A stretch of 63,998 nucleotides of DNA, counting the filler, from Dimargaris cristalligena (lineage: Eukaryota): NCBI GenBank assembly GCA_003614675.1. It is 5 parts of 5 records of this genome, joined end to end, with 100 filler letters (N's around TTAATTAATTAA, not from the genome) between each part and the next. Parts side by side here need not be neighbours in the genome. Positions count along the whole stretch, not along the records: positions 1 to 12,953 come from ML003012.1; 4 more parts are not named here. One strand, written 5' to 3'. The position numbers were made by a program, and so were the translations under genes. This document shows, piece by piece, positions 1-26,104 of the stretch. A model generated the notes under the pieces. That model searched no databases. It was not told the DNA's origin and worked only from the letters and a program-made list of their open reading frames with translations. The number at the start of each line of letters is the position of its first letter. The stretch's first letter is position 1.

Positions 1-299
1 TTTTATTAATATTTTCATTTGAGTGACAAACCAGTTTGCCTGGAGAAGCCACCCTGCCCTTTTGATATATTTTTGTTGTTCATTTTAGTGGCTTGACACC
101 ACCACACTGTGGCAACGCCCCGCTTACCATTAGAAGCCTATCCCCGAGACTCTTGACAGACTAAGAGTGGTTAGCCCGGGCAACAATCAACATCATAGTC
201 TAGTTGGAATAGTGTAAGGACCATTCAAGATTTATGTTTATGGCACAGATCATGCGGCCAACACCTTTCAAACTATTGATACTACCCCAACATAGTTCA

Positions 300-760
300 T
301 CAATTTTATTTAAGTGCCCTTATGTGCTATTTCTTTGGGATAATTGGCTATATTGACAGTGTTTAGTAAGCAGCTACTGGTAGAGGAGGTACAATGTGGA
401 CCAGTGTGAGTTGACAGTATGGTGCAAATTATAATGGGGCTTTCACTAATGGACGTCATTCTAATTTACTCTACTCACTGAAGTGGAGGCGGGCTTTGGC
501 AGGTTGGACCGGTAATGGTAAAGAGGACTAAACTAATATGGGATGACTGTGGGCGATGATCGTAACTGACCATTGGTCAACCAAATTATATTGTCAAGTG
601 TGAATAGAAATTTCATACAATTTGCTTGGAGGTAGCGTTGGAAGCCTTGTAAAGACAAATAGGTAACCAAGTCCAGTTGACTATGGTCGTCTACAAAGGT
701 AATAACGGAGCAAAAACGGGAAGCAACACTGGTATTGATGGCATTTGAGGATGAACGGCA
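300..760 (-). mobile_element. Degenerate Ty1/copia-like integrase relic
   Basis: Minus-strand translation SVITFVDDHSQLDLVTYLS...FQRY resembles the copia integrase core (YFxTFxDDxSRxxxVYFL). Further on, TVNIANY resembles AVNTANY. Interrupted by stops; similarity judged by eye. Confidence 0.4.
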
Positions 761-3541
761 GGCAACAAGTTTAGACGTTTGATACCTAATTACTGGCATC
801 CCAATACCAAAGGGATGGCCTAGGGGAGAGTGACTCCTTCAGGAGCCAACCCCATACCGCGAAACCTCGTCGTACTGACGGTATGATCCTCACAACTTGA
901 CTCGGGTGCTTTTCTAACGAGCCCCTGCAATTTGATATACACACGTCCCCCGTTCGTTCCCAGGTTTCATAGTTAATTGATCAGTTCGCTTATAAATGAC
1001 CTCATATATTGATGGGTCAGCACTGGGAGGCAACTCTAACCCCACTGTGTTACACTCAAAACGATTGCAAGTTTAAGCGTGAAAGAAAAACACCGTAGAT
1101 ATAAGGTTTTGCGTAACGAGCCTGTTCGGGTTATGGCCAAATACAGCTCCGCTGCCGCTCACGTCTATAGAATCTTCTTCCCATTATGAATCAGTACCGA
1201 TGGTTTAAATCATAATACAGGCCATATACATTATTTTCAATTTGGTCTGAGCGTCATTGGCAATTCTGCCCTGGATGCTACGTTCCCAGCGGTTGTCAAA
1301 TAATACCAAAAAGAGTTCAAGTTTATAACCTGACGTCAGTTCATGGGATGGGCGGGAAAATAGTAACCGGCTTCTCACATACTGCTCTGGGTTCCTTCCT
1401 AATCAGAGGGAAATACCCAGGCCCATTTCTGACTCAATTTCTTAATAGCACATTCGGTTTGGTAGTATACCCCTAGGAATAAGCTGCCATACTATAGCGC
1501 CCCTTTTGGATTGATACTGGAATCAAGTAGGCCCGTTATTGAGTGTGATGCCTCTCCGAATACTGTCACTCGGTATACTCAAGATTGAGCTAGGAATGAC
1601 CTTGACCACGATACCTGCATGAAATAGCCCATACATGGCATCTGGTCTATAAACTAGAGCTGAATAAGCCGGGTGATCCAACTGGTGGGGCTCACGCTAA
1701 GCATGTTACGCGTATTAGTTTGACGCGTACATGTCGGAACCTCAAGCAGGGACACTCTCAGCTTCGCGTTTAACACCCCGACTTACTTAACTTGACCAGA
1801 ATCCGATTGCCAGGCCACCGATTTGATCCAGGGCAGTGTGTGCTTAAACAGGATTCGATTAAGGGGGAAGCCTTGGGTAAAGAGTAATCGAATCCAAGAA
1901 TTGAGAACGTCCCGTGCTACTTTCGGGGCCGACACAAATACTAATCCTTAACTCGTGTCTGTGCTTTCGACTGTACTAATTACTAAGCCGAGGGGGCCGG
2001 TGGCTAATACCTATCGCTCTATAGTACTCACCATGGTGTTTTGGGAAAAGATGGGCATTAGGTAATGCAGATGGTCTAATAATCGTAACAATACTTCGCC
2101 AGAAGCGTGGTGCGGTGGTGAATCGACCCAATCGACTCGCAACCGTGATTAAAAAGCTGAAATAGCTCGATGGGGAGCCAAATCGGCCAACCCCGCCTAT
2201 ACAGGGTACTCTTGTGGGCCGAGAATATGTAGGACAAGGCCTGTTTATCTCTCCCACACCCGATTCTACATACTATAAACCCCCCATTGTCCCATGGCTA
2301 TAGATGGCATTTGCAAGGGTTAATTGCTTGAATAACCAGCCCAGGCTAACCACACTGCAAATGATTGGATCAAAAATAACCCGACCTAAAGTGCGAGCCG
2401 ACATAAGCCGAAGAGGGGAAAAGACGAGGCTTATTTTTCAGTCTCCTCCCCTCTCCCTACTATATATAGATCGCCATATAGAAAGAGCGCTGTGGGTGGT
2501 GGCTGGGGTGTATAGGACGGAGGGATAGTGGAACTCAACGGTATCCACTCGGCTGACAGCTTTGGTCAGCATGTTATTTTTACGCTGTACTATGGTCGTT
2601 AGCCGGGCGCGGAAACGGAGAGATAGAGCCCAGCCAATCTAAACCAATGGTTGGCATGGCTCATAGTTTGGCCGCCTATCAGGGGCCAACTTAATTACCC
2701 TGCATTGTCACAGTGCACCCAATGACGGTGTTGGGCCGAAACGCCCAACTCTTAAGCTGCCCAAGGATACCTCGGCTTTTGGAACTTGGCGTTTTTCACT
2801 TAAAAAAAGACGAAGAGATGACTAATGAAAAAAAATCCCCAACAAGGGAAAACATAAGTAAGAAAAGAGAGGCGGGCAAGGTTTGGTGGTGGTCATCCTC
2901 ACGGGCTGTAAACGAGAAATATAAGCAACCGTGCCCCCACTATTTAAAGCCACCCCTAGAGTAAAGTTACACTCCACCGTGATTCTGCCCCTTTTATTCA
3001 CCCGGCTCTGTGTAATATTCGCTCATCTTGCCTTCGCCCTGTCACTATTATACACCACCCAACCAGTCTAGCCCTGTTCTTCCGAGGGACTGAATGCCCC
3101 TGGATGAAATCACTGTGCTTTCGATTTCACTTGCCCCATCGTCATTACAGCGGAATTATAGGGGCATCTGTACCTGTATAAATATTCATTACCATTCCTT
3201 CCCCCCTATCTTTTTCATGTTTATCCGGTTTCATTTTTTTGCACTGTACCTTTTACCACAACACTCCCTTGCCTTTGCCATCCATCATTACTGTATATTT
3301 GCATCTTATCTTTCTTTCATCGCGAACAGCTCATTTTCATATTTTCACATTATAGCCTCAATTCGCTCTTCAATTTATACCTGAAACTACTGTGGTGTAA
3401 AATCTCTGAGCCAAAAACACCTATCGGATCGAGCGACACCTGTTTTACCTTAAAGTTTACAATCATTTCCTAACCCTGATTTTGCCCCATTAGAGTAAAC
3501 CGACCGCCAAATTACCTCTAATATAGTCAACAGTCGTACCC

Positions 3542-5653
3542 ATGAGCGATCACCCCGACTCGAAAATTCCTCCCGAGGTTAAATTCGCCACCGAGCCGTC
3601 CTCCCGGTCGCCCCGTCGCCCTCCCCCGTCGCGGATTTCCCTTCCACCGGTACCCCGGGCCTTTCATATAGCCAGTGCACCCGCCTCGCCCACGTTCCTC
3701 CCCAATGATCCCATCGATGAAGAAGCCGAAACCAGCTCGGACGACGAACATGCGGGGGGTAACTTTACTCTGCCCCGACGATCCAGCCCCCCAACCTCAC
3801 CACCACCACTTCATAACAACAACTACCGGATGCCTACAGAGGCGGTAGCGGTGACCCACGAAAAAATGAACGGGGGAGTCCTCCCACCAACCGGAGTCGG
3901 GGCCGGGGTTGGAGTGAGTGAAAATAACGGAGTGTCCAAGGAATCAGTGACCATTGATATGGAGGGGGTGGACAAGCATGAGCAGGAAGCCCATAAATTA
4001 GTCCGGCGGGCCACGGCCACCCGTCGCCAGTCCGTCCAGGGCGGTGTACTCTCCAGTTTGCTCCATCTGTACAACTCCCAGGCGGGTCCGGACGAAAGTA
4101 AAGCCAAGGCCCGGGCCAAACGGCGCCGTGAACGCAAGACCCAATCCACTATAGCGGCTAACAAAGCTATGCGGCCCATCCAGTCATCCGCTACGCTCAG
4201 CGGCTATCTACTCGGTTCGCCCATGCTCTTCGGTGGTAGCGCCAGCGGTAATAATAGTAATGGAGCCCACCATCATCATCATCATCATCACCATCCACCA
4301 AGTTGTCCCGGCACCCCGGGAACCCCTGACTCATGCCGATCCAGTTTCAGCGAGGACGGTCGGACCTCCTATTTCAATATCCCCTATCTGGAACAGGAGC
4401 GCATCAAAGAAAACATCCGCCGCATTCTCATGCAGCATGAGGTCATGATCTTGGTGGCCCGGGCCCTCCTCATGTTCGGCTCACCGTCCCACCGGCTGGA
4501 GGGGAATATGCGGTTGCTGTCGGACCGGTTGGTCGTGGAGTGTTCGGTGGCTAATTTGCCGGGTTTGCTGCTCATGGCTTTCCACGATCCGGATACCCAT
4601 ACCAGTGAAACCCACATGATCCGCGTCCCCATCGGGGGTTACCATATGGCCCGGTTGCGCCGGACGAACCAGCTGATTCGGTGTCTCATGGCCAAGGAAA
4701 TCACCGTCGATACGGCCATTACCGAACTGAACGATATGATCGAGGCCCCGGCCAATTTACCCTGGTACGTCACCATCGTGAATTACAGTATCGTATCGTT
4801 CGCCGCCGCGCCCCTGCTGTTCGGGGGCAGTTGGGTTGACGCCGGCGTGAGTGGGGCCTTGGGCCTCATCATCGGCAGTATGAGTTTAATTGCCGATCGC
4901 CTCAATGCCTACGCCAACGTTTTCGAAGTGTCCGCGGCCGTGTTCAGCGGCCTCATCGCCTCCGTTCTCAGCAGCCACGTCTGCTACTGGGGGGTCGTCC
5001 TCTCCGCCATGGTCAATTTGCTACCGGGCCTTACGCTTACTTTGGCCGTGACTGAACTATCGTCCCGCAATGTTATTTCTGGATCGGTTCGGCTTTTTTA
5101 TGCCCTCATTGTGGCCTTTTTAATTGGGTTCGGCTTGACCCTCGGAACCAACATCTACACCGGTTCCGGCCGAACCATTGCCGTGACTTCGTACACCTGC
5201 CACCCCATATCCCAATACTACTGGTTCCTGCTCTTTCCCATCACCTCCCTCAGCTTTAACGTGTATTTGCGGGCGAGTTACCGGGACTACCTCCCCATGA
5301 TGCTGGTTAGCGCGGCCGGATTCACCGCCAATCATTTCGCCTCCAAGTATTTCGACGCCAGCTACTTGTCCCCCGCCATCGCATCGTTTGTAATCGCTAC
5401 ATTGAGTAACATTTATTCGCGCGTATTTCAGCAAATGGCCATTAATAATATTCTGGCCGGTATTCTCCTGCTAGTCCCCGGGAGTCTAGGGGTTAAGGGA
5501 AGTCTAGCCCTACTGACCAACGACAGCAGCCAAGCTTATCAATTCGCCCTCCAAATGGTGGTCATTTCCCTGAGTGTGAGTGTGGGCCTCTTTGCGTCAT
5601 CACTTATGGTGTACCCCTTGGGCAAGAAACACAACGTATTAATGACCATCTAA
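3542..5653 (+). CDS. PRM10: Prm10/ThrE-family (DUF1212) membrane protein, 703 aa
   Basis: Single ORF with a long disordered N-terminus containing a His run, then ARALLMFGSPSHRLE and HDPDTHTSETH motifs, about 10 hydrophobic helices, and LLPGLTLT / LLLVPGSLG repeats typical of ThrE proteins. Confidence 0.85.
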   Translation: MSDHPDSKIPPEVKFATEPSSRSPRRPPPSRISLPPVPRAFHIASAPASPTFLPNDPIDEEAETSSDDEHAGGNFTLPRRSSPPTSPPPLHNNNYRMPTEAVAVTHEKMNGGVLPPTGVGAGVGVSENNGVSKESVTIDMEGVDKHEQEAHKLVRRATATRRQSVQGGVLSSLLHLYNSQAGPDESKAKARAKRRRERKTQSTIAANKAMRPIQSSATLSGYLLGSPMLFGGSASGNNSNGAHHHHHHHHHPPSCPGTPGTPDSCRSSFSEDGRTSYFNIPYLEQERIKENIRRILMQHEVMILVARALLMFGSPSHRLEGNMRLLSDRLVVECSVANLPGLLLMAFHDPDTHTSETHMIRVPIGGYHMARLRRTNQLIRCLMAKEITVDTAITELNDMIEAPANLPWYVTIVNYSIVSFAAAPLLFGGSWVDAGVSGALGLIIGSMSLIADRLNAYANVFEVSAAVFSGLIASVLSSHVCYWGVVLSAMVNLLPGLTLTLAVTELSSRNVISGSVRLFYALIVAFLIGFGLTLGTNIYTGSGRTIAVTSYTCHPISQYYWFLLFPITSLSFNVYLRASYRDYLPMMLVSAAGFTANHFASKYFDASYLSPAIASFVIATLSNIYSRVFQQMAINNILAGILLLVPGSLGVKGSLALLTNDSSQAYQFALQMVVISLSVSVGLFASSLMVYPLGKKHNVLMTI

Positions 5654-6399
5654 GGGTCCGTCCGTGGATACGATCAGCTTTAATAGACATGTCTGTGTTT
5701 CACAAGTGACCTGGGCATCATCAGTCCAAATATGCATTAATAAAAGTGAACAAAATAACCATAACATCATCTATGGTATCAAAGGGGAGAGCGAGTGCGA
5801 GTGAGAGTAAGAAGGATAGCGAGAATGAGAGAGAGAGCAAGGCAATGAGTAAGGGGTGGGGAGATTATGCAAGCACAAATAGGGATGTGACGTATACTCG
5901 GATAATAGTGATCCGAAAAATCAATGACTTAAACTTGATTGGGAATTAGGGGTGTCCAGCGTATTATCGTACAGCAACATACATAAATATAAGCTTCAAT
6001 GTGAAAAGTAGAAGGGGTAAATTAAAGCAGGGCAAAAAAGAAGCCGGCAGTTTGCAAGCCTGGGGAAATACAGGAAAATAAGCTATACGCGGGAATTAAT
6101 AGTATGCGGTAGAGACTTCCGCGAACCGATGGAGACTAATCGACTTCATAAATTAGGTATATATCGCCAATTAAAGAGCCAAATGGTGTGAAGAGGGGAA
6201 ATTGACGAAAATTAGAGCTCCCCTGCATTACGCTTGAAAGCATGAGCAAACAATTTTTATGTGTGTTCAGATCGGGTACTAGGATAACCCTTTAAAAGGA
6301 GTGTCGATTAAATACTAGTCTACGGTGCAGTATCCAGACAGGGCGGTGGTTATAAGACCCTATGTATGGGTGGTACATTAAACCGAAAATTCATACGGC

Positions 6400-9300
6400 C
6401 TATTGGGGCGGAACCAGCCTCTTTACTTTACGGAAAATCAGATAGTAGGCCTAAATGGAACCAGGAATGGGTACGTGTAGTTGGGTTTGAGAGAGAGAGA
6501 GAGTGTGTGTGTGTGTGTGATATAGGTGTAATAACAAAGAAAAAAAACAACCAAACTCATTAGCCTATGAGGGGGAGGGGTGAAGTAGAGCAAACCTCCG
6601 CTAAATTTATAAGATTCATATTTTCATAAACTATACAAACAATACAGGAATCAATGACTTACATGTACAATGGGAATAGCCGGGACCGGATCCATATCCG
6701 CCACACAAACCTCCTCGGGGTAATCCTCCAGCGTGTACGTTTTCTTGCGGTCTTTACCGTAACCGTCCGGCACTGCAATCATCAGTTCCTTCAAACGTAA
6801 GGTAAAGGGCGAGTCGGCCGCCAGGACGGCATCCCGAATGTCCTCAAAGACCAAAAGACCCAGCGGCCATAATTTACCGGTCCGCGGACAACGGACATCC
6901 TGAACTCCGATGGCCAAAACCCCGCCGGTATCCGTTAGTCGTTGGAGGGCATCCAGGGCGACGGCGACCAACAGTCGTCGATATCCGGGTAGACAAGCGG
7001 GATCCAGTGTCGTCCCGGCCAGGTGGGGTACCGCCAGAAGGGCCAGTGGACTACCACCCCCACCACTGCCACCCTCCTCCATACCATCGTCGAGAAGGGA
7101 CAGGCTATTCATTAGCTCGTAGTGGGGGATATCGTCGGCCACATCATCGTTGAGGTCGGAGATCAGACCCATGGACATTAGCGCCCGTTTGTTTTGCTTA
7201 ATTTTACGGAGCCGTTCTTGCTCGTAGGTGGAAGCATCGGGGTCCAGATTGGCCGGATCGTCAGGGTCATCGTCGCCGTCTTCACCGTCGTCGGTATCAG
7301 ATTCCGAATCACTTGTCATGGTCGGATCCTCGGTAACCAATGTTGACGAACCGTCGGATAAGAATGCCTGGAACACCTCGCCATCATTATCATCTCCATC
7401 GCCAGCACCAACACCAGTAATGGTCTCCATTTTCAGGTCCGAATCGGGTTGTATACCGGCATGGAGCGGCAGAGCATCTTCAGTTGCCAGCGGTACAATA
7501 CTGACCTCTTCCCAATTGGCCCCGTCCGTACCGAACCGCTCCAAAATGCGGGATAGGCAGAGCGCGCCTAGATCATACTGGGTGTTGGGCAGAAACGTCC
7601 ACACCGTGCCCATCGGCCGACTGGTGCGGACAATCGGGGATAGCGGGATAGCCCGAGCATGGCGCCGTAATTCGAAGCCCTCGGGTGAGCTGATCTGATC
7701 AGAGGTTTGGCACTCCCAGACAAAAGTCGACAGGTCCTCCAGTACCATGGACACCACATCATCGACGGGACATTTTCGGAACGTCGCGATAAACTCATGC
7801 GTGAACATGAGAAAGTCGAACTTGGTGCACAGTTCGGTTCCGAGACCGAAAGCCTGACAGTAGCGCTGGCGTTTAATAACCTAACCGAGTGACAAGCGGA
7901 TTGGGATTGTGAAAATCAGAAAAATAGACGAATTAGGTGTTCTGCTAAGGACTCACAAATATATATATATATTACTATCCCCTCCATTGGACGGGTGAAA
8001 TAGGAGTTGGAAAGCAGAAAGTTCCAACATCCACACCGTCGAATCGGTTTGCTCTATCCTATCCCTAACTAGCTGGGCTGAATTTCAGCCACTATACACT
8101 AAGCAACCCCCCCCCCCTCATTCCGTTTAACATACCAATTCTTCAAGCTCGAAACCACGACTCAGGTACTGGCGAAATAGGTGAAAGCTCACTGGGGTGT
8201 AAAAACAATCTTTGCGATTATCACCGATCCCCAGCGTGACCCGGCGGTTCATTTTGAGCAAGCGGCGGGTTTCTAAGATGACTAGGTCCATTTCCTGGAT
8301 AAACTGATTCGACCCGGGGAACCGACTTAAATCCCCGTCAATATGTTTGGAATAGAGGACGCAGTTCTTGTAGGGCGGGTGGGACAACACATGATCGAAA
8401 GATTCCGGGTCCAAACCGGGTCCGATCAAGGACCGCGCATCGCCTAAAAAGATAACCGGCCGGTGTTCCGCGGTGATGCCCGTATCTAGCGGCACCCGAA
8501 ACGAACAGTTCCGTTTGGATCGGTCCACGGCCAGGGGATTGATGTCAATGCCCACACAGCGCCGTTTGAGCAGCATACTTTCAATAGCATCCGTACCTCG
8601 CCCTAGGAAATTGGACAGAATCCGTTCGTGGGGACGGGTATACCGGAGGAGCGCGCGGCGCACCGTTTGGGGTAGCCAGGTGCCGTGATAATCCGAGCCC
8701 GAGTGGGTGGCCCAGCGGGGGGCTCGACCGGGAATATCATAGTAGGTGGAGTCCACAGCCAGGGAAAAGAGTTGGGCTTCGGATGGGCCTAGTGATTCTA
8801 ACTCGGGTACGTCACCCATGGGCTGGTCCATAGTGGCCGAAATCACCGACGCGCGGGTAAGGTAGGTGGTGAAACTGTAGTCTTCAATCGGGGCCAGGTA
8901 CTGGGACAGCAGTACCCCTTCCAAGGGCAAACCAGCGGAAATATCACCACCTTTTTCGCCGCCTCCGACCACCCCGACGCCGACCCCTTGTAAGTCAGAG
9001 TCGGTTGAGTCGAGCACTTTAGTCGGATGGAGTTGGTTTAAGGTCAAATCGTAACAGTCCTTACACATCAACATACCTCCGAACCCACGGCGCCAACCGG
9101 GGGCTAAGAAATTAGGGCAATAGGAGCATTGGATATCGGAAAGTGAGTTTTCGTCCATACCGTCCAGTGCCGATAGCAGCAGGGCCTGTTGGTTTCGTTT
9201 GGCCTTATTACCCCCCCCGGACGACACCCCCCCTCCCTGGCCTTTGCTTCGGGCTGTTGCATCCGGATCACTGCGGGACGACCGGATCCGGAGAGCACAG

Positions 9301-12300
9301 CGCTGTTCCTCTTCCGCCTGTTTCAGCTCGGCAATCTTCGCCCAGGATGTTGTTTGGAAGAGCTCTTGGGAATGGTGGTGGTCTTCGGGCGTATGGACTT
9401 CCGCGCAGCTGTAGCAGAGGTCGTATGACGAGAAATAGTCTTGGCTGCAGAGGCTGCAGGTGATCCAGGAGGTTTCGTCCACCAGGCTCTTACTGCAGCG
9501 ATCACAACTGAAGACATCTTCGTATTGATCTAATAAAAGCCCCCCCCCACCGAAAAAATCGCAGGGATGTTATTGGAGAAGTTAGAGTGTACAGCAGTTA
9601 GACCAACCAAACACCGGGAGGGTTAGAATAAATAATGTATAGGTCATATATCTGTGGGGTGGGGGTGGGTAATGCCAATCAAATGGGCAAATGGTATGTG
9701 TTCGCTAGGGAGAGAGATGTAGTCTCATCCGAACCCAATGGTGGGCTAGATAGGGTGATCAAGTACACAATTCTTACCAGTTGAATGTAGATGGGATTCG
9801 TGTTGTGGGCACCAGAAAATGACTCCCTCTTTAAAGTAGGACAGGGGCTTATTAGTGCAGCCAAAGTGGTAGCTCCTGTTGCATTTGCTGTGAAAGCAGC
9901 CAATCGTGGCACCTTTCTCGCGGCACCGGATGCATTTCTAAGCCGGTCCCAAATAATTGAATAAATGAATATATCATAATGCGAAGGATAAGAGACAAGG
10001 CCACGTAAACATACCAAATTGAGGAATTGGTAAAATTTAACATTGCCGACATAAACTGAATCACGCCTTTGAACATACTATAGTCTGCATTAACATTCAC
10101 GTAAAATCGAATACTTACCATTTGACGGCCCCGTTTGAGGGCGGCCGTGACATTATACCATTCATCGTTCACTACCACCACTTCGGGGGAGTACCGGGCA
10201 CAAGCATCGTGTGCCCAGAACTGCCGGAATTTGGTAGTCCCCTTGCGGCTGCTGACCGGGTACACAAACGGATAAGGTCCGATGAAGGGACCCGTCTTAC
10301 TGCCCGGGGCCTTTTCGTCATCTAAACAGAAGGCACAGATCTTCCGACTCATGTACTTTTTATAGAACTCGAAGTCTTGCTCGCCATTGTCCGGGCAAGG
10401 GTCAGGCGCCTTGTAATTAGTGTCAAATTGATCCTTCTCAAAGCTCTGCACAATTTCCCCGGCGAGGGCTAACGGATCGATAGTGTTGGAACCGTGACTA
10501 CCACTCCCATTCTGGTCGAGGGCACTACTGCTGCTGCTGTTGTTGAGGACGTTAAAGAGTGCCGGGTCAATGCTCGTGGTAATATGGGTAGCGGATGTGC
10601 CCCCCACCGTTGACTGGTCCCCCGGTGCAATCAGCCACTGCATGGCAAATGAGGAGCGCGGGTGCATGTGGTAAATGGGGAACCGGTGCTCGAAGCAATA
10701 GACACATAGTTCGAAGCTCTTGTAGTCGAATCCCTCGGACGGACTTTCGCAGTATGTGCAGTAAAAGCGGACCTGTTTGATAACGCGATTGCAGCAATTG
10801 CAGTAAATGGTCCAGTGGGGGTCGTAATCATCCGGGCATGGCTCAACCATGGCTTCCATTTCTGATAGCTCCATGGGATCGTTGGCGTGACCGCTACAGC
10901 CTCTGGCCACTACCAAGTCGGCATTGACATATTCGATCCCGTCGGTATAAGTGACTTCCGACGTTGAATTTAGTAAAGACTTGTCTTTGCCCTTGTCCTT
11001 AGCTTTGCCCTTGGCCCTGGTACCTACCTTGGCTTTGCCATTAACCTTGACCTTGGATTGTCGTTGGGTGGTACGACCCACGGCATTGTCAGTATTTCGA
11101 CGCGCTTGATGTTGGCCTTTCTTCAGCTTATTACTATTGGTCGCCTTCGTGGGGCCTACGCAACTAGGCTCTTCAACTGGCGGGTGGTTGCAAAGGATGG
11201 AGGGTGTTTCGGTAGGGGATATGACTGGTGGGGGTGACTGAGCGACGGCTGAATCCGGTGGAGGAAGAGGCATCGGTGGGGTAGACGCAGGGGTTAGAGG
11301 AGTGGGGATGGGGATAGGTAAGGCTAGTCGGGGGGCAGGCATCGGAGGGGGAACGGACCTGACCAATGATGCCGCCAGCTTAATTCCCAGACGACTAGTG
11401 ATGAATTTAGAGGTGTATTGCCGGGATAGTTGGGGGAGGTGGTTCGCCTTTAAGTAGACCATGGGGGCAACAACGGGGGTTCCGAAGCAGACATTAATGG
11501 GCTTAGATGGGGGTGGCGGCGTGGGCGTGGGCCAAACAGCCCGGGGCGCCGGTGGAGTAGGGCGGACGACGGGCTTCCCCGCCTCTGACAGTAATTTAAG
11601 TTCCCATTGCAACTTCTCCATTCGAGAGCGCCGCCGATTATCGGCTGTGCTTTACCCCGGGAGCCTACCTGCGGGTACGGGATCACAACCGCCAGTGGAG
11701 CAATGCCCAGGTGGAGTCTGTACACGGGGACTATATTACCATTCACAACGCCGGGTTTTCCCTGGCGACCAAGGAACGAATCCCCCTGAATAGTCCCCGG
11801 CTGCGCGTCCGCCTTAAATCGATCCAGGCACTCTGGCGCCAGTCCCACTTACCCACCCCGGCTTCGATGGCCTCCCCGACCCATCGCCCGAATGGGACCC
11901 TGCCCTCTCCTACCAAGGCTGTTTCACCCGATACCCCCGTACGGAATGGCAACGGGCAACCCGACCGTATACTCTCCCCGCTATCGGAACGGTTCTCGGT
12001 CTCGCCCAATGTTCCCCAAAGCCGGTGCGGCTGGCGGGAATAATGGAAAAGGCAGCGGTGTTGAATGATCGGCTGACCAGGGCCAGGCCCGAAGCGGACA
12101 GCCGAGGTGGACGGCTGGGCGAGGGTGTCACCGTGGGTCGGGGATGGTGGTGCTGGGGGTCAGGTGAGTCCTTCTGCGAAGGCGATACCGATGTGGGGGT
12201 GGGAAGAGGTGGCAGGGAGACAGCCGTAGGGGTGGGGGGAATTGGTGGAGAATAGGGCGTGGTAGTAGTAGGAAGCGGCGGGGAGACGGTCATGGAAGTA

Positions 12301-12953
12301 GGTGGAAGTGGTGGGGAGACGCTCGCAGAAGTAGAGGGAAGGGGTGGGGAGCCCGCGGCAGTGACCACCGGGGCAGGTGTCACTGGAGTCGCTACTACAG
12401 GAGCAGCCGTCACTACGGCAGCCGGTGTAGGGGTCAAATCGGTCTCAGCGGAAGCCGGTGGCTTGCCGACGCGCGGGCGCTTTAGGACAGGCTGGTGTAA
12501 TTTACCGTAGTCCTCTAAGGATAAAAGCCGACGACTGTCGATAGGCACCCATTCGGGAGGCCAGCCGAGCTCCGGTTCGAATTCAGCCTTGACCCGACCG
12601 TCGCTTACCAGCGTTAGCTGGGCCTGGTACCATTGCTGACCGCCCCGACGCACCATAACCTGCTGCATGGGTTTGAATTGGTGAAACTCTTCCACAAACC
12701 CCGTGGAATGCTCGGCCAGCCTTTTGAGGACGCTGCGGGTTAGGAATGCACCCGTGGAGACGAACGCGGAGGCCCCCGGGGTGGCGGACCCAGTCGGCAG
12801 GGTACGTCGGCCCCTTTTCCCTGACGCGGCGGGGGTCGCACCAGGGGTTGTGGTGGTCGACAGTCGGGACCGGGTGACCATTGGTGGTTTGACCAAGGGG
12901 GGGGGGAAGTGGCAGGGGAGGGCCACGGCTTCGGGGGAGAAGAGAAATGTGAC
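6400..12953 (-). CDS. Multidomain chromatin-reader DNA amino-methyltransferase (N6_N4_Mtase-like), 5'-truncated by the contig end and interrupted by an internal 400-bp inversion
   Basis: Exons reconstructed with GT-AG sites and consistent phase: 12953-10119 (after re-inverting 11621-12020), 9937-9778, 9529-8136, 7880-6663, 6450-6400 (AYYLIFRKVKRLVPPQ*); at least 1885 aa. Domains in order: Tudor-like (WYQAQL...EWVPIDSRRL), second Tudor-like, ZZ (CNCC...FYCTYC...ELCVYC), ePHD (CAFC...WAHDACARYSPEV...KCIRCREKGATIGC...YHFGC...FWCPQH), ZZ (CDRC...CSLC...YDLCYSC), GATA-like (CSYC...WRRGFGGMLMCKDC), MTase motif I (SNFLGRGT) and motif IV (SHPPY). Confidence 0.88.
11621..12020 (+). other. Inverted 400-bp coding segment of the methyltransferase gene (encodes the second Tudor-like domain)
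   Basis: Plus strand reads FESAADYRLCFTPGAYLRVRDHNRQWSNAQVESVHGDYITIHNAGFSLATKERIPLNSPRLR...SVSPNVPQ with no stop. Re-inversion joins ...ASRTG|FESAADY... and ...NVPQ|MEKLQWELK... in frame. Confidence 0.9.
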
Positions 12954-13053
12954 NNNNNNNNNNNNNNNNNNNNNNNNNNNNNNNNNNNNNNNNNNNNTTA
13001 ATTAATTAANNNNNNNNNNNNNNNNNNNNNNNNNNNNNNNNNNNNNNNNNNNN
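12954..13053. other. Artificial contig linker (N44-TTAATTAATTAA-N44)
   Basis: Identical 100-nt linker with stops in all six frames, seen four times in the window. Confidence 0.97.
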
Positions 13054-16000
13054 ATGACCTGATGGCCCCGGCGGATCAGGTCCGCCGCAATTTGGTAGCA
13101 GCATCGGTATAGCTTTTCCCCCATTTTGGCGTGACGAACTAGTTGGCCGAGCTCACCGGGCTCCATATCCCGCATGGCCGCAATGGATTTGGCATGCCCC
13201 ACTTTCTCCAACTTCTGGATCGTTTCGTACGGGAGGATGGGAGAAAACTGCGCGAGTGGGTGTTCAAAGGGCCACATTTGCTTTTCGACACATTGGTTGA
13301 GGGCCAGCAGGACGGCCGCTGTGGGGCCCCAGCCGCGGTTGACGGCAATCTCGAATAGAGCCCGAAGCACTCGGCTCGCGTTTTGGCGCACATAGGCCAT
13401 CTCGGATATTAAGGCGAAGTCCTGGACGCTGGCCCGACTGATCGCGGCCTGGAGCAGAATGTTGACTTTGCCGTAACTGGTATCCGCTCCCCCCTTGACC
13501 GCGCAGTAGCATTCGTGGTGGAGGAGGACGTCCAGTTCCTTGGCCTCTACTTCGCGGACCTTAATCTGAGAAAATTCGGAACTCAGACTCAGGAGGGCTA
13601 GAGAGTCGGCCTCAGTCATACGGGGGCGTAGGAACTGGTTAATGGTTTCGACGGTGGCGTGCTGAATATAATAGGCCGACGCGATACGACCTAAATCCTT
13701 GGGGGCCAAGTACCCCGTCTCCGAATGGAACAGAACCATCTGCAGGCGGTGGAGGAGTTTGGCGGACTGAGTCACCAGGTCCACCCGCCGCTTACCGAGC
13801 AGGGGGTCCTGCAATACCTCGGCGAGCGACATGCCGTAGGCCAGAGGGTTTTTACGCATCCGGACGTAAAGAAAGGTGTAACTCAGCCAAACCACGGCTT
13901 CATCCACGTTGGTTACCGTACCCAAGGCCACTTCGGCGTTCAGGTTGTCAGCCAGATTCCGGGCGAAACAAGACTCGATGGGATGTTGTTGGGTGATGGC
14001 CCCCACGTAATGGGCCAGCCGGTCGTGGGTGGTCAAAATATGGCCCACACCCTGACTTTCATACTGGGGCCGACCGGCTCGACCGAAAATCTGTAAAACG
14101 TCCAAGATGGACAAGTCGGTGAATTTACCCTTCTCGGCATCATAGACCTGGGTGCCTTTAATGATGACCGCATACGCGGGGAGATTGACCCCCCAGGCCA
14201 GGGTAGCGGTACAGCAAAGGACCCGCACCAACCCTTCGGCAAACAGTTTCTCGACCAAATTGCGGTCCGAGCGCAGCATACCCGCGTGGTGGATAGCAAA
14301 CCCGAATGAAAACAATTCACGTAATTCACGGTTATTCGATTTGCCAACCTCCTTCTGGTAAAGGCCAAACTGGGGGTGATCAACGGCCTCAAAGTCGGTG
14401 ATAGTGCCTTCTTCCGTGGCCTTGTTCCGCAGGTATTGCGCGGTTTTAACGGTTTCCTTACGCGCATGTACAAACACCATGACCTGATGGCCCTGGCGGA
14501 TCAGGTCCGCCGCAATTTGGTAGCAGCACCGGTTTAGGTTATTGTTCGAGGTGGGGGAATTGGGTTTTCCCTTGACCCCCAGGAAGCGCTGTTCCAGTGG
14601 TACGGGCCGGAACCCGCCATCGAAGAAAAAGAGGCCTTCGTGGAGGTTGACCCGGAGAAACTGGGCCACGTCCAGGAAATTAGGCAGGGTGGCGGAAAGG
14701 CCGACAATACGGATCATAGATTGACTGGTTTCCACCTGCCGTAAGGTTCGGGCCACGATACTCTCAATCACCGAACCACGGTCTTCGTGCAGAAGGTGTA
14801 CTTCGTCGATGATGAGCAGCCGCACTTTCTTGACCAGATCTCCGTCGCCGGTTCCCTTGCGGGTAACCACGTCCCACTTTTCGGGGGTGGTGACAATCAC
14901 TTGGGTGGCGCTGACCTCAGCCTTGGTGAGCTGCATGTCGCCGGTAAATTCGCGTACTTGGATACCCAGCCACTTCAGCCGGCGGCCCATCTTCTGTACA
15001 ATTTCGGCCGCAAGAGCCTTCATAGGAGCAACGTAAACGATTTTCATGGCTTCCCGGTCCACTACGAAGGGGTGGGACGTTGGGGCGGGTTTCTTGCTGG
15101 TATTGGGCCCTTTAGTCTGTGGCTTGGGCTGAGGGTAATCGGCTGGATTGACCGTCCATGGTTTCGGCTCGCAGAATAGCGAGATGGTGCGAAGCATGGT
15201 GAGCATAGCTACATCGGTTTTACCCTGAATTAGGAGAATGGCATAGCGGGATATAAGGGCATACATTAGGCCGATTCATGCAAGGTAGAAAGCAGGAATA
15301 GGTCCATAAAAGCGAAAAGGGTATAGGTCGGTATTAGCGGAGAGTAGGGTGGGAGTTGGCCCGGCAATAAGTGACAGGGTTTGTTGGGTAATCACTATAC
15401 TAATGGGTTGATGGATAAGAGTCGGTAGTTAACTTACCGCACCAGTGGGCGCGCACACCAGCATGTTTTCATTCGACTGGTACGCTGTAGGGTATACAAT
15501 CGATTGGATACGATTGAGAGATTTATAGCCGCGGAAAGTGAGTTGGCAGAGGAGATCCATATCCCCCATTTCAATGGGTTTCTCGGTCGGAAGATCGGGG
15601 GCCCGGTTACTGACGGGAATGACAATCTCCTCGTAGTCCGGATAGTCCTGACGGGTAGTGCCCTCGGGTAAGGCGAATTTGTCACCGTAAATGGATATGG
15701 CATTGCCGCCCCGGTGGGCTTGGTAGACATGCGGGTACTCGTTGGCGTGATAGACGGACTAATGGATATTATTCCGATTAGGTATCCGTAGGACGATTAA
15801 GAGATTCGAATAGTGTGCACAGATGGAGTGGGGAAAGAGGTTTGTGGGACAGGTTAGGTTGTGCCTTTTTTAACCGGTAAAATAAACCGGTGCCTCGTAC
15901 GATAGGGGAGTACTCAGTCCAGCGAGAACTAAACTAGAGTGTTTCCCTTCGACTAGCAGCCAAACAACCGCCCCTACACTAGGGATATAGAGAAGCCAAT

Positions 16001-26004: not shown

Positions 26005-26104
26005 NNNNNNNNNNNNNNNNNNNNNNNNNNNNNNNNNNNNNNNNNNNNTTAATTAATTAANNNNNNNNNNNNNNNNNNNNNNNNNNNNNNNNNNNNNNNN
26101 NNNN
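26005..26104. other. Artificial contig linker
   Basis: N44-TTAATTAATTAA-N44. Confidence 0.97.

What the first reader, a model, noticed from the sequence alone, without database searches (positions are those of the whole stretch)
6400..12953. Large histone-reader/DNA amino-methyltransferase fusion: a candidate chromatin-guided 6mA or 4mC writer
Seen: one reconstructed protein of at least 1885 aa, which the ORF track shows only as unrelated fragments. It links an AT-hook-like KRGRR, two Tudor-like barrels, ZZ, ePHD, ZZ and a GATA-like finger to a prokaryote-type SAM-dependent amino-MTase (FLGRGT, GIDINP, GDAR, SHPPY). Established: Tudor, PHD and ZZ domains read histone tails; early-diverging fungi have abundant 6mA; reader-fused prokaryote-type adenine MTases distinct from MT-A70 have been noted in these fungi, so the family itself is probably not new. 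Inference: this single chain could read histone marks and DNA sequence and write a DNA mark, and this exact architecture may be uncharacterised.
Basis: partly seen in the sequence, partly recalled or inferred. Interest (0 to 1): 0.85.

Follow-up and report, generated by a model that had tools for sequence, protein, structure and literature searches.

The report
Chromatin-reader adenine methyltransferase of early fungi
This is the Dimargaris cristalligena copy of a very large protein that joins histone-reader modules to a bacterial-type adenine methyltransferase; the family was described by comparative genomics in 2016 but I found no bench test of it, and the odd inverted piece inside the gene is an assembly error.

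Summary
Window 6400-12953 (minus strand) is one gene, NCBI BJ085DRAFT_40155 of Dimargaris cristalligena (100% match). The annotated 1713-aa model skips a 411-nt piece (11616-12026) that encodes the second Tudor-like barrel on the plus strand. Contigs of two independent studies carry that piece in the gene's own orientation, with about 40 and 149 extra letters at the joints and the frame kept. So the inversion is an assembly chimera. The gene is also cut at its 5' end by the contig end (12953).

The family is not new. [quoted passage not shown] Every feature I could test fits.

New support found here:
- Motif IV is HPPY in 130 of 131 fungal members.
- Prokaryotic relatives also carry HPPY (79 of 80 loci).
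- 21 of those 80 loci hold a DpnII-type restriction enzyme.

This favours DNA N6-adenine over 4mC or tRNA. It is not MetB (PF02384). The papers I searched hold no experimental test. Interest is moderate.

The parts
12954..13053 (.). N runs around a TTAATTAATTAA linker: a contig boundary. The gene is cut here at its 5' end.
   Evidence: One search gives contig length 12953 for P0001.
12018..12953 (-). First part of exon 1. The frame is open to the contig end and the annotated ATG is at 12881. It holds KRGRR (12804-12818) and a P/T-rich linker.
   Evidence: Homology to P0002 426-525 and P0003 474-581.
12519..12683 (-). Tudor/MBT-like barrel 1.
   Evidence: A profile of 25 non-Dimargaritales relatives hits it at E 7e-7. 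It aligns with the Pfam MBT/Tudor_4/Agenet hits of P0024 and P0036. Pfam itself gives nothing.
11616..12026 (+). Mis-oriented piece of exon 1, coding on the plus strand in this assembly. The true locus has it in the minus-strand sense, with about 40 and about 149 extra nt at the joints.
11657..11806 (+). Tudor/MBT-like barrel 2. Most aromatic positions of the family consensus are replaced.
   Evidence: Profile hit E 2.4e-5. It aligns with the Pfam MBT/Chromo_MORC2/Agenet hits of P0036 and P0050.
11670..11717 (-). Spurious 16-aa mini-exon of the annotated model, read on the antisense of the mis-oriented piece.
10119..11621 (-). Rest of exon 1: linker, basic region, ZZ finger 1 (about 10640-10810) and the first half of the ePHD (10119-10226).
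9938..10118 (-). Intron 1 (GTAAGT...AG).
9778..9937 (-). Exon 2: second half of the ePHD (zf-HC5HC2H).
   Evidence: Pfam E 1.4e-7. Whole domain E 2.6e-9 in P0001.
9530..9777 (-). Intron 2 (GTAAGA...AG).
9372..9506 (-). ZZ finger 2.
   Evidence: ZZ1 and ZZ2 family profiles align at 97.4% probability, E 1.2e-11. Pfam ZZ is found at this position in P0112 (2.4e-4) and P0114 (7.2e-4).
9054..9128 (-). GATA-like finger, C-x2-C-x17-C-x2-C with WRR.
   Evidence: Pfam GATA is below cut-off in P0036 (2.2e-5) and P0026 (3.7e-4). The top Foldseek rows are GATA fingers, but at E 0.15-0.7.
8134..8741 (-). Catalytic methyltransferase domain, main part: WATH..GTW motif, I FLGRGT (8592-8609), II GIDINP (8535-8552), GDAR (8433-8444), IV SHPPY (8370-8384), GIGDNR.
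7881..8133 (-). Intron 3 (GTATGT...AG).
7773..7880 (-). End of the catalytic domain (KRQRY ... THEFIATFRK).
6663..7601 (-). Second, inactive methyltransferase-like domain, split by an acidic disordered insert and the KRI-like helix (7164-7226).
   Evidence: hhalign against the catalytic domain: 93.7% probability, E 1.9e-7, with the HPPY position not conserved. AF2 model.
6451..6662 (-). Intron 4 (GTAAGT...AG).
6400..6450 (-). Last exon (AYYLIFRK... plus stop): the last strand of the inactive domain.

Best explanation
What it is. The locus is the Dimargaris cristalligena orthologue of the basal-fungal 'Group-1 Clade 4' (DpnA-like) amino-methyltransferase. In this assembly it is cut at its 5' end and carries a local chimeric inversion.

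Shown here.
- It is one gene of five exons.
- It encodes, in order, at least two royal-family (Tudor/MBT-like) barrels, ZZ, ePHD, ZZ, a GATA-like finger, and an intact-looking unpermuted methyltransferase domain with motif IV HPPY.
- It ends in a degenerate copy of that domain, interrupted by an acidic loop and a KRI-like helix.

Inferred.
- The barrels, ePHD and ZZ dock the protein on particular histone tails. The GATA-like finger and basic stretches hold DNA.
- The active domain, braced by its inactive twin as an intramolecular pseudo-dimer, transfers methyl from SAM to N6 of adenine in DNA. The arrangement would resemble METTL3-METTL14 or Mta1-Mta9.
- The substrate may be single-stranded or transiently opened DNA, as for DpnA.
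- GATC-type specificity may be inherited from its restriction-modification ancestors, or may have been relaxed.
For: Identity.
- 100% match to BJ085DRAFT_40155 on a contig of 12953 nt.
- 116 of the 120 listed long relatives carry names. All named genera are early-diverging fungi by my recall of their taxonomy; only Dimargaris was looked up.
- 34 of 35 sampled fungal domains form one clade, support 98.

One gene.
- The exons have GT..AG borders.
- ZZ2, the GATA-like finger and the methyltransferase share one exon.
- The un-inverted form stands in contigs of two studies (X1; X2 at depth 185). 40 + 411 + 149 = 600 nt keeps the frame.
- The loose letters before 11616 translate to LNLNSFVAV, which matches NLNLQSFVAL of Dispira.

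Catalytic competence, in 131 fungal members.
- Motif I G..G.T: 130 and 128 of 131.
- Motif II D: 130. GDxR D: 128. HPPY: 130.

DNA adenine.
- Pfam N6_N4_Mtase scores 33 bits, cut-off 26.7.
- Prokaryotic relatives reach 94-117 bits in two permuted stretches, against 20-32 bits for UPF0020.
- The Fusobacterium relative (35% identity, THPPY) lies in a locus ordered D12 methylase, DpnII endonuclease, Mrr, then this methyltransferase.
- Of 80 prokaryotic loci, 21 hold a DpnII-like endonuclease, mostly adjacent and on the same strand. 11 hold a D12 methylase. 79 of the 80 methyltransferases carry HPPY.
- DpnA methylates ssDNA and protects GATC sites from DpnII (PMC3573125, abstract and passages).

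Inactive twin.
- hhalign gives 93.7% probability, E 1.9e-7.
- The AF2 model has pLDDT 79.8 and pTM 0.82.
- Complex prediction scored 0.83, best of 3 controls 0.00. The mark was reached by 51 of 78 solved complexes and 2 of 108 mismatched pairs. On eukaryotes it was reached by 39 of 65 solved pairs and 2 of 126 unrelated pairs. The runs agree in at least 45% of contacts and the partner's pLDDT is at least 57.
- The lowest-error contacts pair equivalent elements of the two domains.

Published description. It matches Iyer et al. 2016.
Against: - No activity data exist for any fungal member in the papers I searched.
- A single-sequence PDB search scores Trm11 (1.8e-4) the same as a Thermus DNA-type methylase (1.9e-4).
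- 52 of the 80 prokaryotic loci show no DpnII or D12 neighbour. Many are archaeal MAGs, so part of that family could do something else.
- I did not verify that S. pneumoniae DpnA itself is of the HPPY unpermuted type. That link is Iyer's statement.
- Pfam finds no barrel, ZZ or GATA in this species. Barrel 2 has lost most consensus aromatic residues, so histone reading by it is doubtful.
- In the complex-prediction job, chain 1 also held the N-terminal third of the inactive domain. Part of the interface is therefore within one domain. The alignments were not used.
- There is no RNA evidence for a single transcript.
Confidence: 0.6

Rival explanations
1. The enzyme is an RNA methyltransferase. 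It would act on nascent RNA, or be a Trm11-like N2-guanine or N6-adenine enzyme recruited to chromatin, and would not write DNA.
For: Trm11, TrmN and Trm14 top both fold searches. TIGR01177 and UPF0020 give weak hits to the prokaryotic relatives. Iyer et al. note that N6A enzymes acting on ssDNA often shifted to RNA in eukaryotes.
Against: P0001 gives no UPF0020 or TIGR01177 hit at E <= 0.01. N6_N4_Mtase scores are far higher in the relatives. The relatives are adjacent to DpnII endonucleases. The fusions are chromatin and DNA modules, with no RNA-binding domain found.
Confidence: 0.15
2. It writes N4-methylcytosine, like the bdelloid N4CMT.
For: It belongs to the same Pfam family, PF01555. 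That family has switched between 6mA and 4mC several times (PMC8885841, passages).
Against: The motif is HPPY, not SPPY. The motif order is unpermuted, whereas N4CMT is permuted. The relatives pair with DpnII-type enzymes, which are blocked by adenine methylation at GATC.
Confidence: 0.05
3. It is a catalytically silent scaffold or reader. The methyltransferase fold would only bind SAM, DNA or a partner.
For: H replaces the usual D/N/S. One of the two domains is clearly dead. Lax et al. explain Mucor's asymmetric 6mA by MetB and its symmetric 6mA by Mta1 without this gene.
Against: All SAM-binding and motif IV positions are kept in 128-130 of 131 fungal members. The same HPPY is carried by the restriction-modification relatives, which must be active.
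Confidence: 0.08
4. The target is a protein amide or amine, for example a histone glutamine as with HemK-type NPPY enzymes.
For: The [DNSH]PP[YFW] clade includes glutamine methyltransferases. HEMK2 and PrmA appear among the fold neighbours. The reader modules bind histones.
Against: There is no specific sequence relation to HemK or PrmA (E 1e-2 or worse). The nearest relatives are restriction-modification enzymes.
Confidence: 0.05
5. The inversion is real in this strain, so the gene is broken or encodes a protein without barrel 2.
For: The deposited assembly and one contig of run X3 carry the window's left joint.
Against: Contigs of X1 and X2 (two studies; X2 at depth 185) carry the colinear form with the frame kept. 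The X3 contig leaves the window at 12026 in a hairpin-like way. There are only 6- and 9-nt microhomologies and no long inverted repeat at the joints. A D. cristalligena genome project used single-cell MDA (PMC6784888, passages). By my recall, that method makes inverted chimeras.
Confidence: 0.03

Closest known systems
Group-1 Clade 4 N6A-methyltransferases of basal fungi (Iyer, Zhang, Aravind 2016, PMC4738411)
   Same: Unpermuted catalytic domain with a [DNSH]PP[YFW] motif. Found only in basal fungi. [quoted passage not shown] Second inactive C-terminal methyltransferase domain with the KRI insert. Related to methylases of DpnII systems.
   Different: Nothing essential: this is a member. This species shows divergent barrels, with the third family barrel not detectable, and no canonical AT-hook in the part that is held. 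The published description is computational only.
DpnA-type second methylase of DpnII restriction-modification systems
   Same: 35% identity to a Fusobacterium member. It shares the WATH..GNW, GxGT, GDAR, HPPY, GDxR, K.Q and HE..F.K motifs and has a small domain without a separate target-recognition domain.
   Different: The prokaryotic proteins are 244-320 aa, stand alone and sit next to endonucleases. The fungal one is over 1900 aa, with readers and an internal inactive twin. Specificity for GATC or for ssDNA is untested.
Bdelloid rotifer N4CMT (PMC8885841)
   Same: A bacterial PF01555 amino-methyltransferase captured by a eukaryote and fused to a royal-family reader: a 'histone-read-DNA-write' logic.
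   Different: N4CMT is the permuted beta type with SPPY. It writes 4mC and has one chromodomain. It was an independent acquisition.
MTA1c / AMT1 complex (MT-A70), the established ApT 6mA writer of early fungi and ciliates
   Same: The same organisms and probably the same mark. An active subunit is paired with an inactive paralogue.
   Different: A different family (permuted MT-A70, DPPW) made of separate polypeptides. The DNA binding comes from Myb-like P1.
MetB of Mucorales (N6_Mtase PF02384)
   Same: A prokaryote-derived adenine methyltransferase of early-diverging fungi.
   Different: A different family (type I/IIL gamma class with a target-recognition domain) and no reader fusions. It was shown to write AAA6mACA.
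Trm11 / TrmN / Trm14 N2-guanine tRNA methyltransferases
   Different: No THUMP-type RNA module was seen. HMM scores are below cut-off. The WATH..GNW and HE..F.K motifs are those of N6_N4 DNA enzymes.

Membership tests
Group-1 Clade 4 (Iyer 2016) | Unpermuted order: motif I before motif IV. | tested here: met
   FLGRGT is at residue 1134 and SHPPY at 1209 of P0001. The alignment with Trm11 is colinear, while the beta-class 2zie aligns in two swapped pieces.
Group-1 Clade 4 (Iyer 2016) | [DNSH]PP[YFW] motif on strand 4. | tested here: met
   HPPY in 130 of 131 fungal members, this one included.
Group-1 Clade 4 (Iyer 2016) | Confined to basal fungi. | tested here: met
   116 of the 120 listed relatives are named. 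All named genera are early-diverging fungi by my recall of their taxonomy; 4 are unnamed. Only the Dimargaris lineage was looked up.
Group-1 Clade 4 (Iyer 2016) | Fusion to Chromo-like, ZZ, PHD and GATA modules. | tested here: met
   ePHD by Pfam, 2.6e-9. Barrels by family profiles, 7e-7 and 2.4e-5. ZZ1 against ZZ2 at 97.4% and Pfam ZZ in two orthologues. The GATA pattern, with sub-threshold Pfam hits in orthologues.
Group-1 Clade 4 (Iyer 2016) | AT-hook. | tested here: inconclusive
   Only KRGRR lies in the part that is held. Dispira has RGRGRPRK. The 5' end of the gene is missing.
Group-1 Clade 4 (Iyer 2016) | Second, inactive C-terminal methyltransferase domain with a KRI insert. | tested here: met
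   hhalign 93.7%, E 1.9e-7, with the motif IV position degenerate. The AF2 model shows a second Rossmann-like domain split by a disordered acidic loop and a helix.
Group-1 Clade 4 (Iyer 2016) | Prokaryotic kin in DpnII restriction-modification systems. | tested here: met
   The Fusobacterium locus. 21 of 80 loci hold a DpnII-like endonuclease and 11 of 80 a D12 methylase.
Pfam N6_N4_Mtase PF01555 | Score above the gathering cut-off. | tested here: met
   33 bits against 26.7, but only profile positions 158-218 are matched.
MetB / N6_Mtase PF02384 | PF02384 domain with a target-recognition domain. | tested here: not met
   No PF02384 hit in P0001, P0002 or P0003 at E <= 0.01.
MT-A70 (Mta1/METTL) | MT-A70 domain, permuted, DPPW. 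| tested here: not met
   No such Pfam hit. The motif is HPPY and the order is unpermuted.
N4CMT-type 4mC writers | Permuted beta-type domain with SPPY. | tested here: not met
   The N4CMT features are taken from PMC8885841.
Trm11 / UPF0020 (PF01170, TIGR01177) | HMM score above the curated cut-off. | tested here: not met
   No hit in P0001. The window's domain gives no TIGR01177 hit at E <= 0.01. The relatives score 35-50 bits against a cut-off of 316.
Trm11 / UPF0020 (PF01170, TIGR01177) | Closest fold. | tested here: inconclusive
Any family above | Methyl transfer to DNA adenine N6; binding of histone tails. | not testable with these tools
   Needs biochemistry and genetics.

The most novel reading that the evidence does not exclude
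Early-diverging fungi have a third 6mA pathway that nobody has tested, besides MTA1c and MetB. In it, a single giant polypeptide reads several histone marks at once. It uses an intramolecular active/inactive methyltransferase pair, derived from a GATC-specific enzyme able to act on ssDNA, to mark DNA that is opened by transcription or replication. The HPPY variant of motif IV would define this enzyme class in archaea, bacteria and fungi.
Probability: 0.3. Interest if true: 0.7.

Novelty: new member of a known kind. Interest (0 to 1): 0.35.

Why it matters
6mA in early-diverging fungi is among the better supported cases of adenine DNA methylation in eukaryotes. Its known writers are MTA1c and MetB. 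This conserved family has chromatin readers and a bacterial-type adenine methyltransferase in one chain. It was predicted in 2016, yet it is absent from the main text of the Mucorales study that deleted candidate writers (0 occurrences of PF01555, N6_N4 or DpnA).

Showing what it writes, and which histone marks guide it, would complete the list of fungal DNA-mark writers. It would also give a second natural 'histone-read, DNA-write' enzyme beside the rotifer N4CMT.

For annotation, the deposited D. cristalligena model is wrong. It lacks barrel 2, contains a spurious mini-exon and is cut at its 5' end.

Tried and rejected
Expression and genome.
- No RNA holder was listed for this stretch, so the single-transcript question could not be addressed.
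- No whole genome is held for the window.

Searches for a better copy or more relatives.
- A search for a fuller D. cristalligena protein with the N-terminal part found only P0001.
- The phage collection gave no match. The plasmid collection gave two records, of which only the Fusobacterium one was useful.

Reader modules.
- Pfam on the window's own barrels and on the ZZ1 region found nothing significant. ZZ_ADA2 reached E 0.4.
- Single-sequence PDB searches of the zinc-finger regions gave only noise. GATA1 appeared at E 3.9.

Inversion.
- The inverted-repeat scan at the joints showed nothing long; the best pair was 21 nt at 71%.
- My first by-eye breakpoints (about 11619 and 12036), and an apparent match of the joint to D. 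verticillata, were replaced by the joints seen.

Other points.
- The barrel profiles found no third barrel in the window at E <= 10.
- MetB membership was considered and rejected.
- Literature: PF01555 with 'fungal' gave 4 papers, none on this family. Four locus tags of the family gave 0 papers. N6_N4_Mtase with fungi and 6mA gave only the rotifer paper.
- Figures and supplements were not visible: Iyer's Fig. 1C and Supporting Information, and Lax's Supplementary Data. They may list this architecture or these genes.


Full report
WHAT IS THERE

Window 1-12953 is one contig. It is followed by an N run and a TTAATTAATTAA linker. Such linkers recur at 26049, 39094 and 52110, so the window is a chain of contigs.

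The 478-aa frame with the methyltransferase motifs matches, at 100%, the 1713-aa NCBI protein BJ085DRAFT_40155 of Dimargaris cristalligena. That protein lies on a contig of 12953 nt. The species belongs to Kickxellomycota, Dimargaritales.

The nearest orthologues are Dispira simplex (2301 aa, P0002) and Dimargaris verticillata (2245 aa, P0003).

THE GENE MODEL AND THE INVERSION

tblastn of both orthologues puts every segment on the minus strand, with one exception. Residues 671-802 (P0002) and 669-746 (P0003) hit the plus strand at 11606-11953, at E 8e-19 and 7e-14.

The annotated model bridges this stretch with two invented introns and a 16-aa mini-exon at 11717-11670, read on the antisense.

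Public contigs laid on 10900-12800 settle the matter.
- A 3955-nt contig of run X1 and an 8606-nt contig of run X2 carry 11616-12026 in the opposite orientation to both flanks. The runs are from different studies, and X2 has depth 185.
- In both contigs, 40 further letters lie at one joint and 149 at the other.
- By my count, 40 + 411 + 149 = 600 nt. Position 12018 ends a codon and 11621 starts one, so the colinear form keeps a single frame.
- Loose letters before 11616 in a contig of X5 translate in that frame to LNLNSFVAV. Dispira has NLNLQSFVAL at the same place.
- A contig of X3 follows the window through 11616-11621 but leaves it at 12026, which is hairpin-like behaviour.

The joints have microhomologies of only 6 and 9 nt, and no long inverted repeat lies there. 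A D. cristalligena genome project used single-cell multiple displacement amplification (PMC6784888, passages). By my recall, that method produces inverted chimeras. I did not try to link the coded runs or this assembly to that project.

The frame is also open up to the contig end, and orthologues have about 425-470 more residues upstream. The gene is therefore cut at its 5' end. The real protein is probably well over 2000 aa.

The other introns have GT..AG borders: 10118-9938, 9777-9530, 8133-7881 and 6662-6451.

Pfam finds only the ePHD in this species: zf-HC5HC2H at 2.6e-9.

The barrels.
- They are divergent. Pfam gives nothing at E <= 1.
- Profiles built from the two barrels of 25 relatives outside Dimargaritales were searched against the 178 six-frame ORFs of the contig. 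They find exactly two places: the minus-strand frame at residues 91-145 (E 7e-7) and the plus-strand frame at residues 20-69 (E 2.4e-5).
- In the family alignment these columns are the ones Pfam calls MBT, Tudor_4, Agenet, SAWADEE or Chromo_MORC2 in Funneliformis, Umbelopsis and Spizellomyces.
- Barrel 1 keeps the W-Y ... W ... EW pattern of the family. Barrel 2 has lost most of it, so I doubt it still has a methyl-lysine cage (inference).
- No third barrel, present in the orthologues, was detected.

The zinc fingers.
- The two ZZ-like fingers are homologous to each other: hhalign 97.4%, E 1.2e-11, with the pattern C-x2-C ... C-x2-C ... DLC-x2-C ... H-x-H.
- Pfam ZZ hits the second position in two orthologues, at 2.4e-4 and 7.2e-4, about at cut-off.
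- The GATA-like finger is C-x2-C-x17-C-x2-C with WRR. Pfam GATA is below cut-off in two orthologues.
- KRGRR is not a canonical AT-hook.

THE METHYLTRANSFERASE HALF

Motif order is I (FLGRGT), II (GIDINP), GDAR, IV (SHPPY), then GIGDNR, KRQRY and THEFIATFRK. Pfam N6_N4_Mtase matches only its C-terminal third (33 bits, cut-off 26.7). The reason is that the Pfam model is of the permuted beta type.

Across 131 fungal members, the motif I glycines, the motif II aspartate, the GDxR aspartate and HPPY are kept in 128-130. The domain therefore looks active.

The residue before PP is H, not S. The published definition of the amino-methyltransferase motif is [DNSH]PP[YFW] (PMC4738411).

The C-terminal 360 residues are a degenerate copy of the domain.
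- hhalign gives 93.7% probability, E 1.9e-7, over 148 columns, and the HPPY position is not conserved.
- The copy is split by an acidic disordered loop and a conserved helix, YEQERLRKI..N...L..LGL.
- AlphaFold2 on residues 1073-1713 with 50 relatives gives pLDDT 79.8 and pTM 0.82.

A complex test of the two parts scored 0.83, with the best of 3 controls at 0.00.
- The mark was reached by 51 of 78 solved complexes and 2 of 108 mismatched pairs.
- On eukaryotes it was reached by 39 of 65 solved pairs and 2 of 126 unrelated pairs.
- The runs agree in at least 45% of contacts, and the partner's pLDDT is at least 57.
- The lowest-error contacts join the hairpin after GIGDNR, and the strand before KRQRY, of the active domain to the equivalent elements of the dead one. 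That is a pseudo-twofold pair.
- Caveats: chain 1 also held the first third of the dead domain, the alignments were not used, and the model supports binding but does not show it.

DNA OR RNA, ADENINE OR CYTOSINE

1. HMM scores. The nearest non-fungal relatives are proteins of 240-550 aa, 35-42% identical, from metagenomes. Two clusters are named 'DNA modification methylase' or 'DNA methylase'. They score 94-117 bits on N6_N4_Mtase in two swapped stretches. They score 20-32 bits on UPF0020, and 35-50 bits on TIGR01177, whose cut-off is 316.

2. Gene neighbourhood.
- The one useful annotated-record hit is a 244-aa Fusobacterium vincentii protein: 35% identity, pairwise E 8e-38, motif THPPY. It lies in the order D12 Dam-type methylase, DpnII endonuclease (Pfam 5e-109), Mrr-type endonuclease, then this methylase.
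- A scan of one genome per prokaryotic species found at least 597 loci. The best 80 were kept. They are mostly archaeal MAGs, with some thermophilic bacteria.
- 21 of the 80 hold a DpnII-like endonuclease, mostly adjacent and on the same strand. 11 hold a D12 methylase. 28 hold either. 52 hold neither.
- 79 of the 80 methylases carry HPPY, including 20 of the 21 beside DpnII-like genes. The exception is a truncated ORF.

DpnII systems cut unmethylated GATC. Their second methylase, DpnA, methylates single-stranded DNA (PMC3573125, abstract and passages).

I infer that the HPPY class is a DNA N6-adenine class and that the fungal domain descends from it. I did not check the pneumococcal DpnA sequence itself.

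A FastTree of 204 domains puts 34 of 35 sampled fungal rows in one clade (support 98). It is separated from 165 prokaryote-type rows by a branch with support 99. One acquisition is not ruled out.

COMPARISON WITH WHAT IS KNOWN

Iyer, Zhang and Aravind (BioEssays 2016, PMC4738411; section 8 read in full) describe 'Clade 4' of their Group 1 as follows.
- It has an unpermuted domain and is seen only in basal fungi.
- It has a second C-terminal inactive methyltransferase domain, with KRI inserted between strands 3 and 4.
- Its prokaryotic versions lie in DpnII systems.
- They predict action on ssDNA.

Every feature I could test fits, so this gene is a member and the architecture is not new on paper.

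It is not MetB, which is PF02384 and writes AAA6mACA. It is not MT-A70. The functional analogue with bench data is the rotifer N4CMT: a permuted SPPY enzyme plus a chromodomain, which writes 4mC.

I found no experimental work on the family.
- The Mucorales study that deleted metA, metB, metC, mta1 and p1 has 0 occurrences of PF01555, N6_N4 or DpnA in its main text.
- The 2026 review of fungal methylation has 0 occurrences of N6_N4 or Tudor.
- Searches for PF01555 with 'fungal' and for four locus tags gave nothing relevant.
- Figures and supplements of these papers could not be seen.

VERDICT

The most likely mechanism is a chromatin-docked N6-adenine DNA methyltransferase that works as an internal active/inactive pair. 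I put this at about 0.6. The identity of the gene is near certain. The activity and the histone reading are inferred.

Interest is moderate. The family is a real, conserved and still untested candidate writer in the fungi that have the most 6mA.

Noticed in passing
window 12998, 26049, 39094, 52110: Four TTAATTAATTAA linkers flanked by N runs. The window is a chain of at least five short contigs, so neighbours across these points are not linked in the genome.
   Followed up: partly
window 13005-15275 (-): A fragment of a Brr2/SNRNP200-type helicase (Sec63, DEAD and SNRNP200_wHTH by Pfam) on the next contig. Its last residues at the contig end (CCYQIAADLIR.GHQV) repeat an internal stretch of the same frame. 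This may be another chimeric joint of the assembly.
   Followed up: no
window 3527-5653 (+): The upstream neighbour on the same contig is a ThrE-family membrane protein (PF06738, 4.8e-52). It has a long disordered N-terminus and a run of nine histidines.
   Followed up: partly
window 11330-11480 (-): Where the orthologues have a third barrel, this species has only a short stretch ending in ...FITSRLGIKL. The barrel profiles do not detect it. It is either degenerate or affected by a further assembly fault.
   Followed up: partly
L002-L081: The stand-alone HPPY methylase is very widespread in archaeal MAGs (Bathyarchaeia, Methanoperedens, Thermoplasmata, Nitrososphaeria, Asgard-related) at 55-84% identity to one another. 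At least 597 loci were found. 52 of the 80 kept loci show no DpnII or Dam partner in the flanks, and several recurrent small neighbours have no Pfam family.
   Followed up: partly
L001 (NZ_CP084075.1): This record is filed as a Fusobacterium vincentii 'plasmid' but is 2.1 Mb long and carries DNA polymerase III alpha beside the DpnII locus. It looks like a chromosome filed as a plasmid.
   Followed up: no
P0002, P0003 N-termini: The orthologues carry two or three short C-x2-C ... C-x2-C ribbons, each followed by PLF, upstream of barrel 1. The window's frame just before the contig end resembles the tail of the last one. These may be the 'DNMT3-like Zn-finger' or a further DNA-binding module.
   Followed up: no
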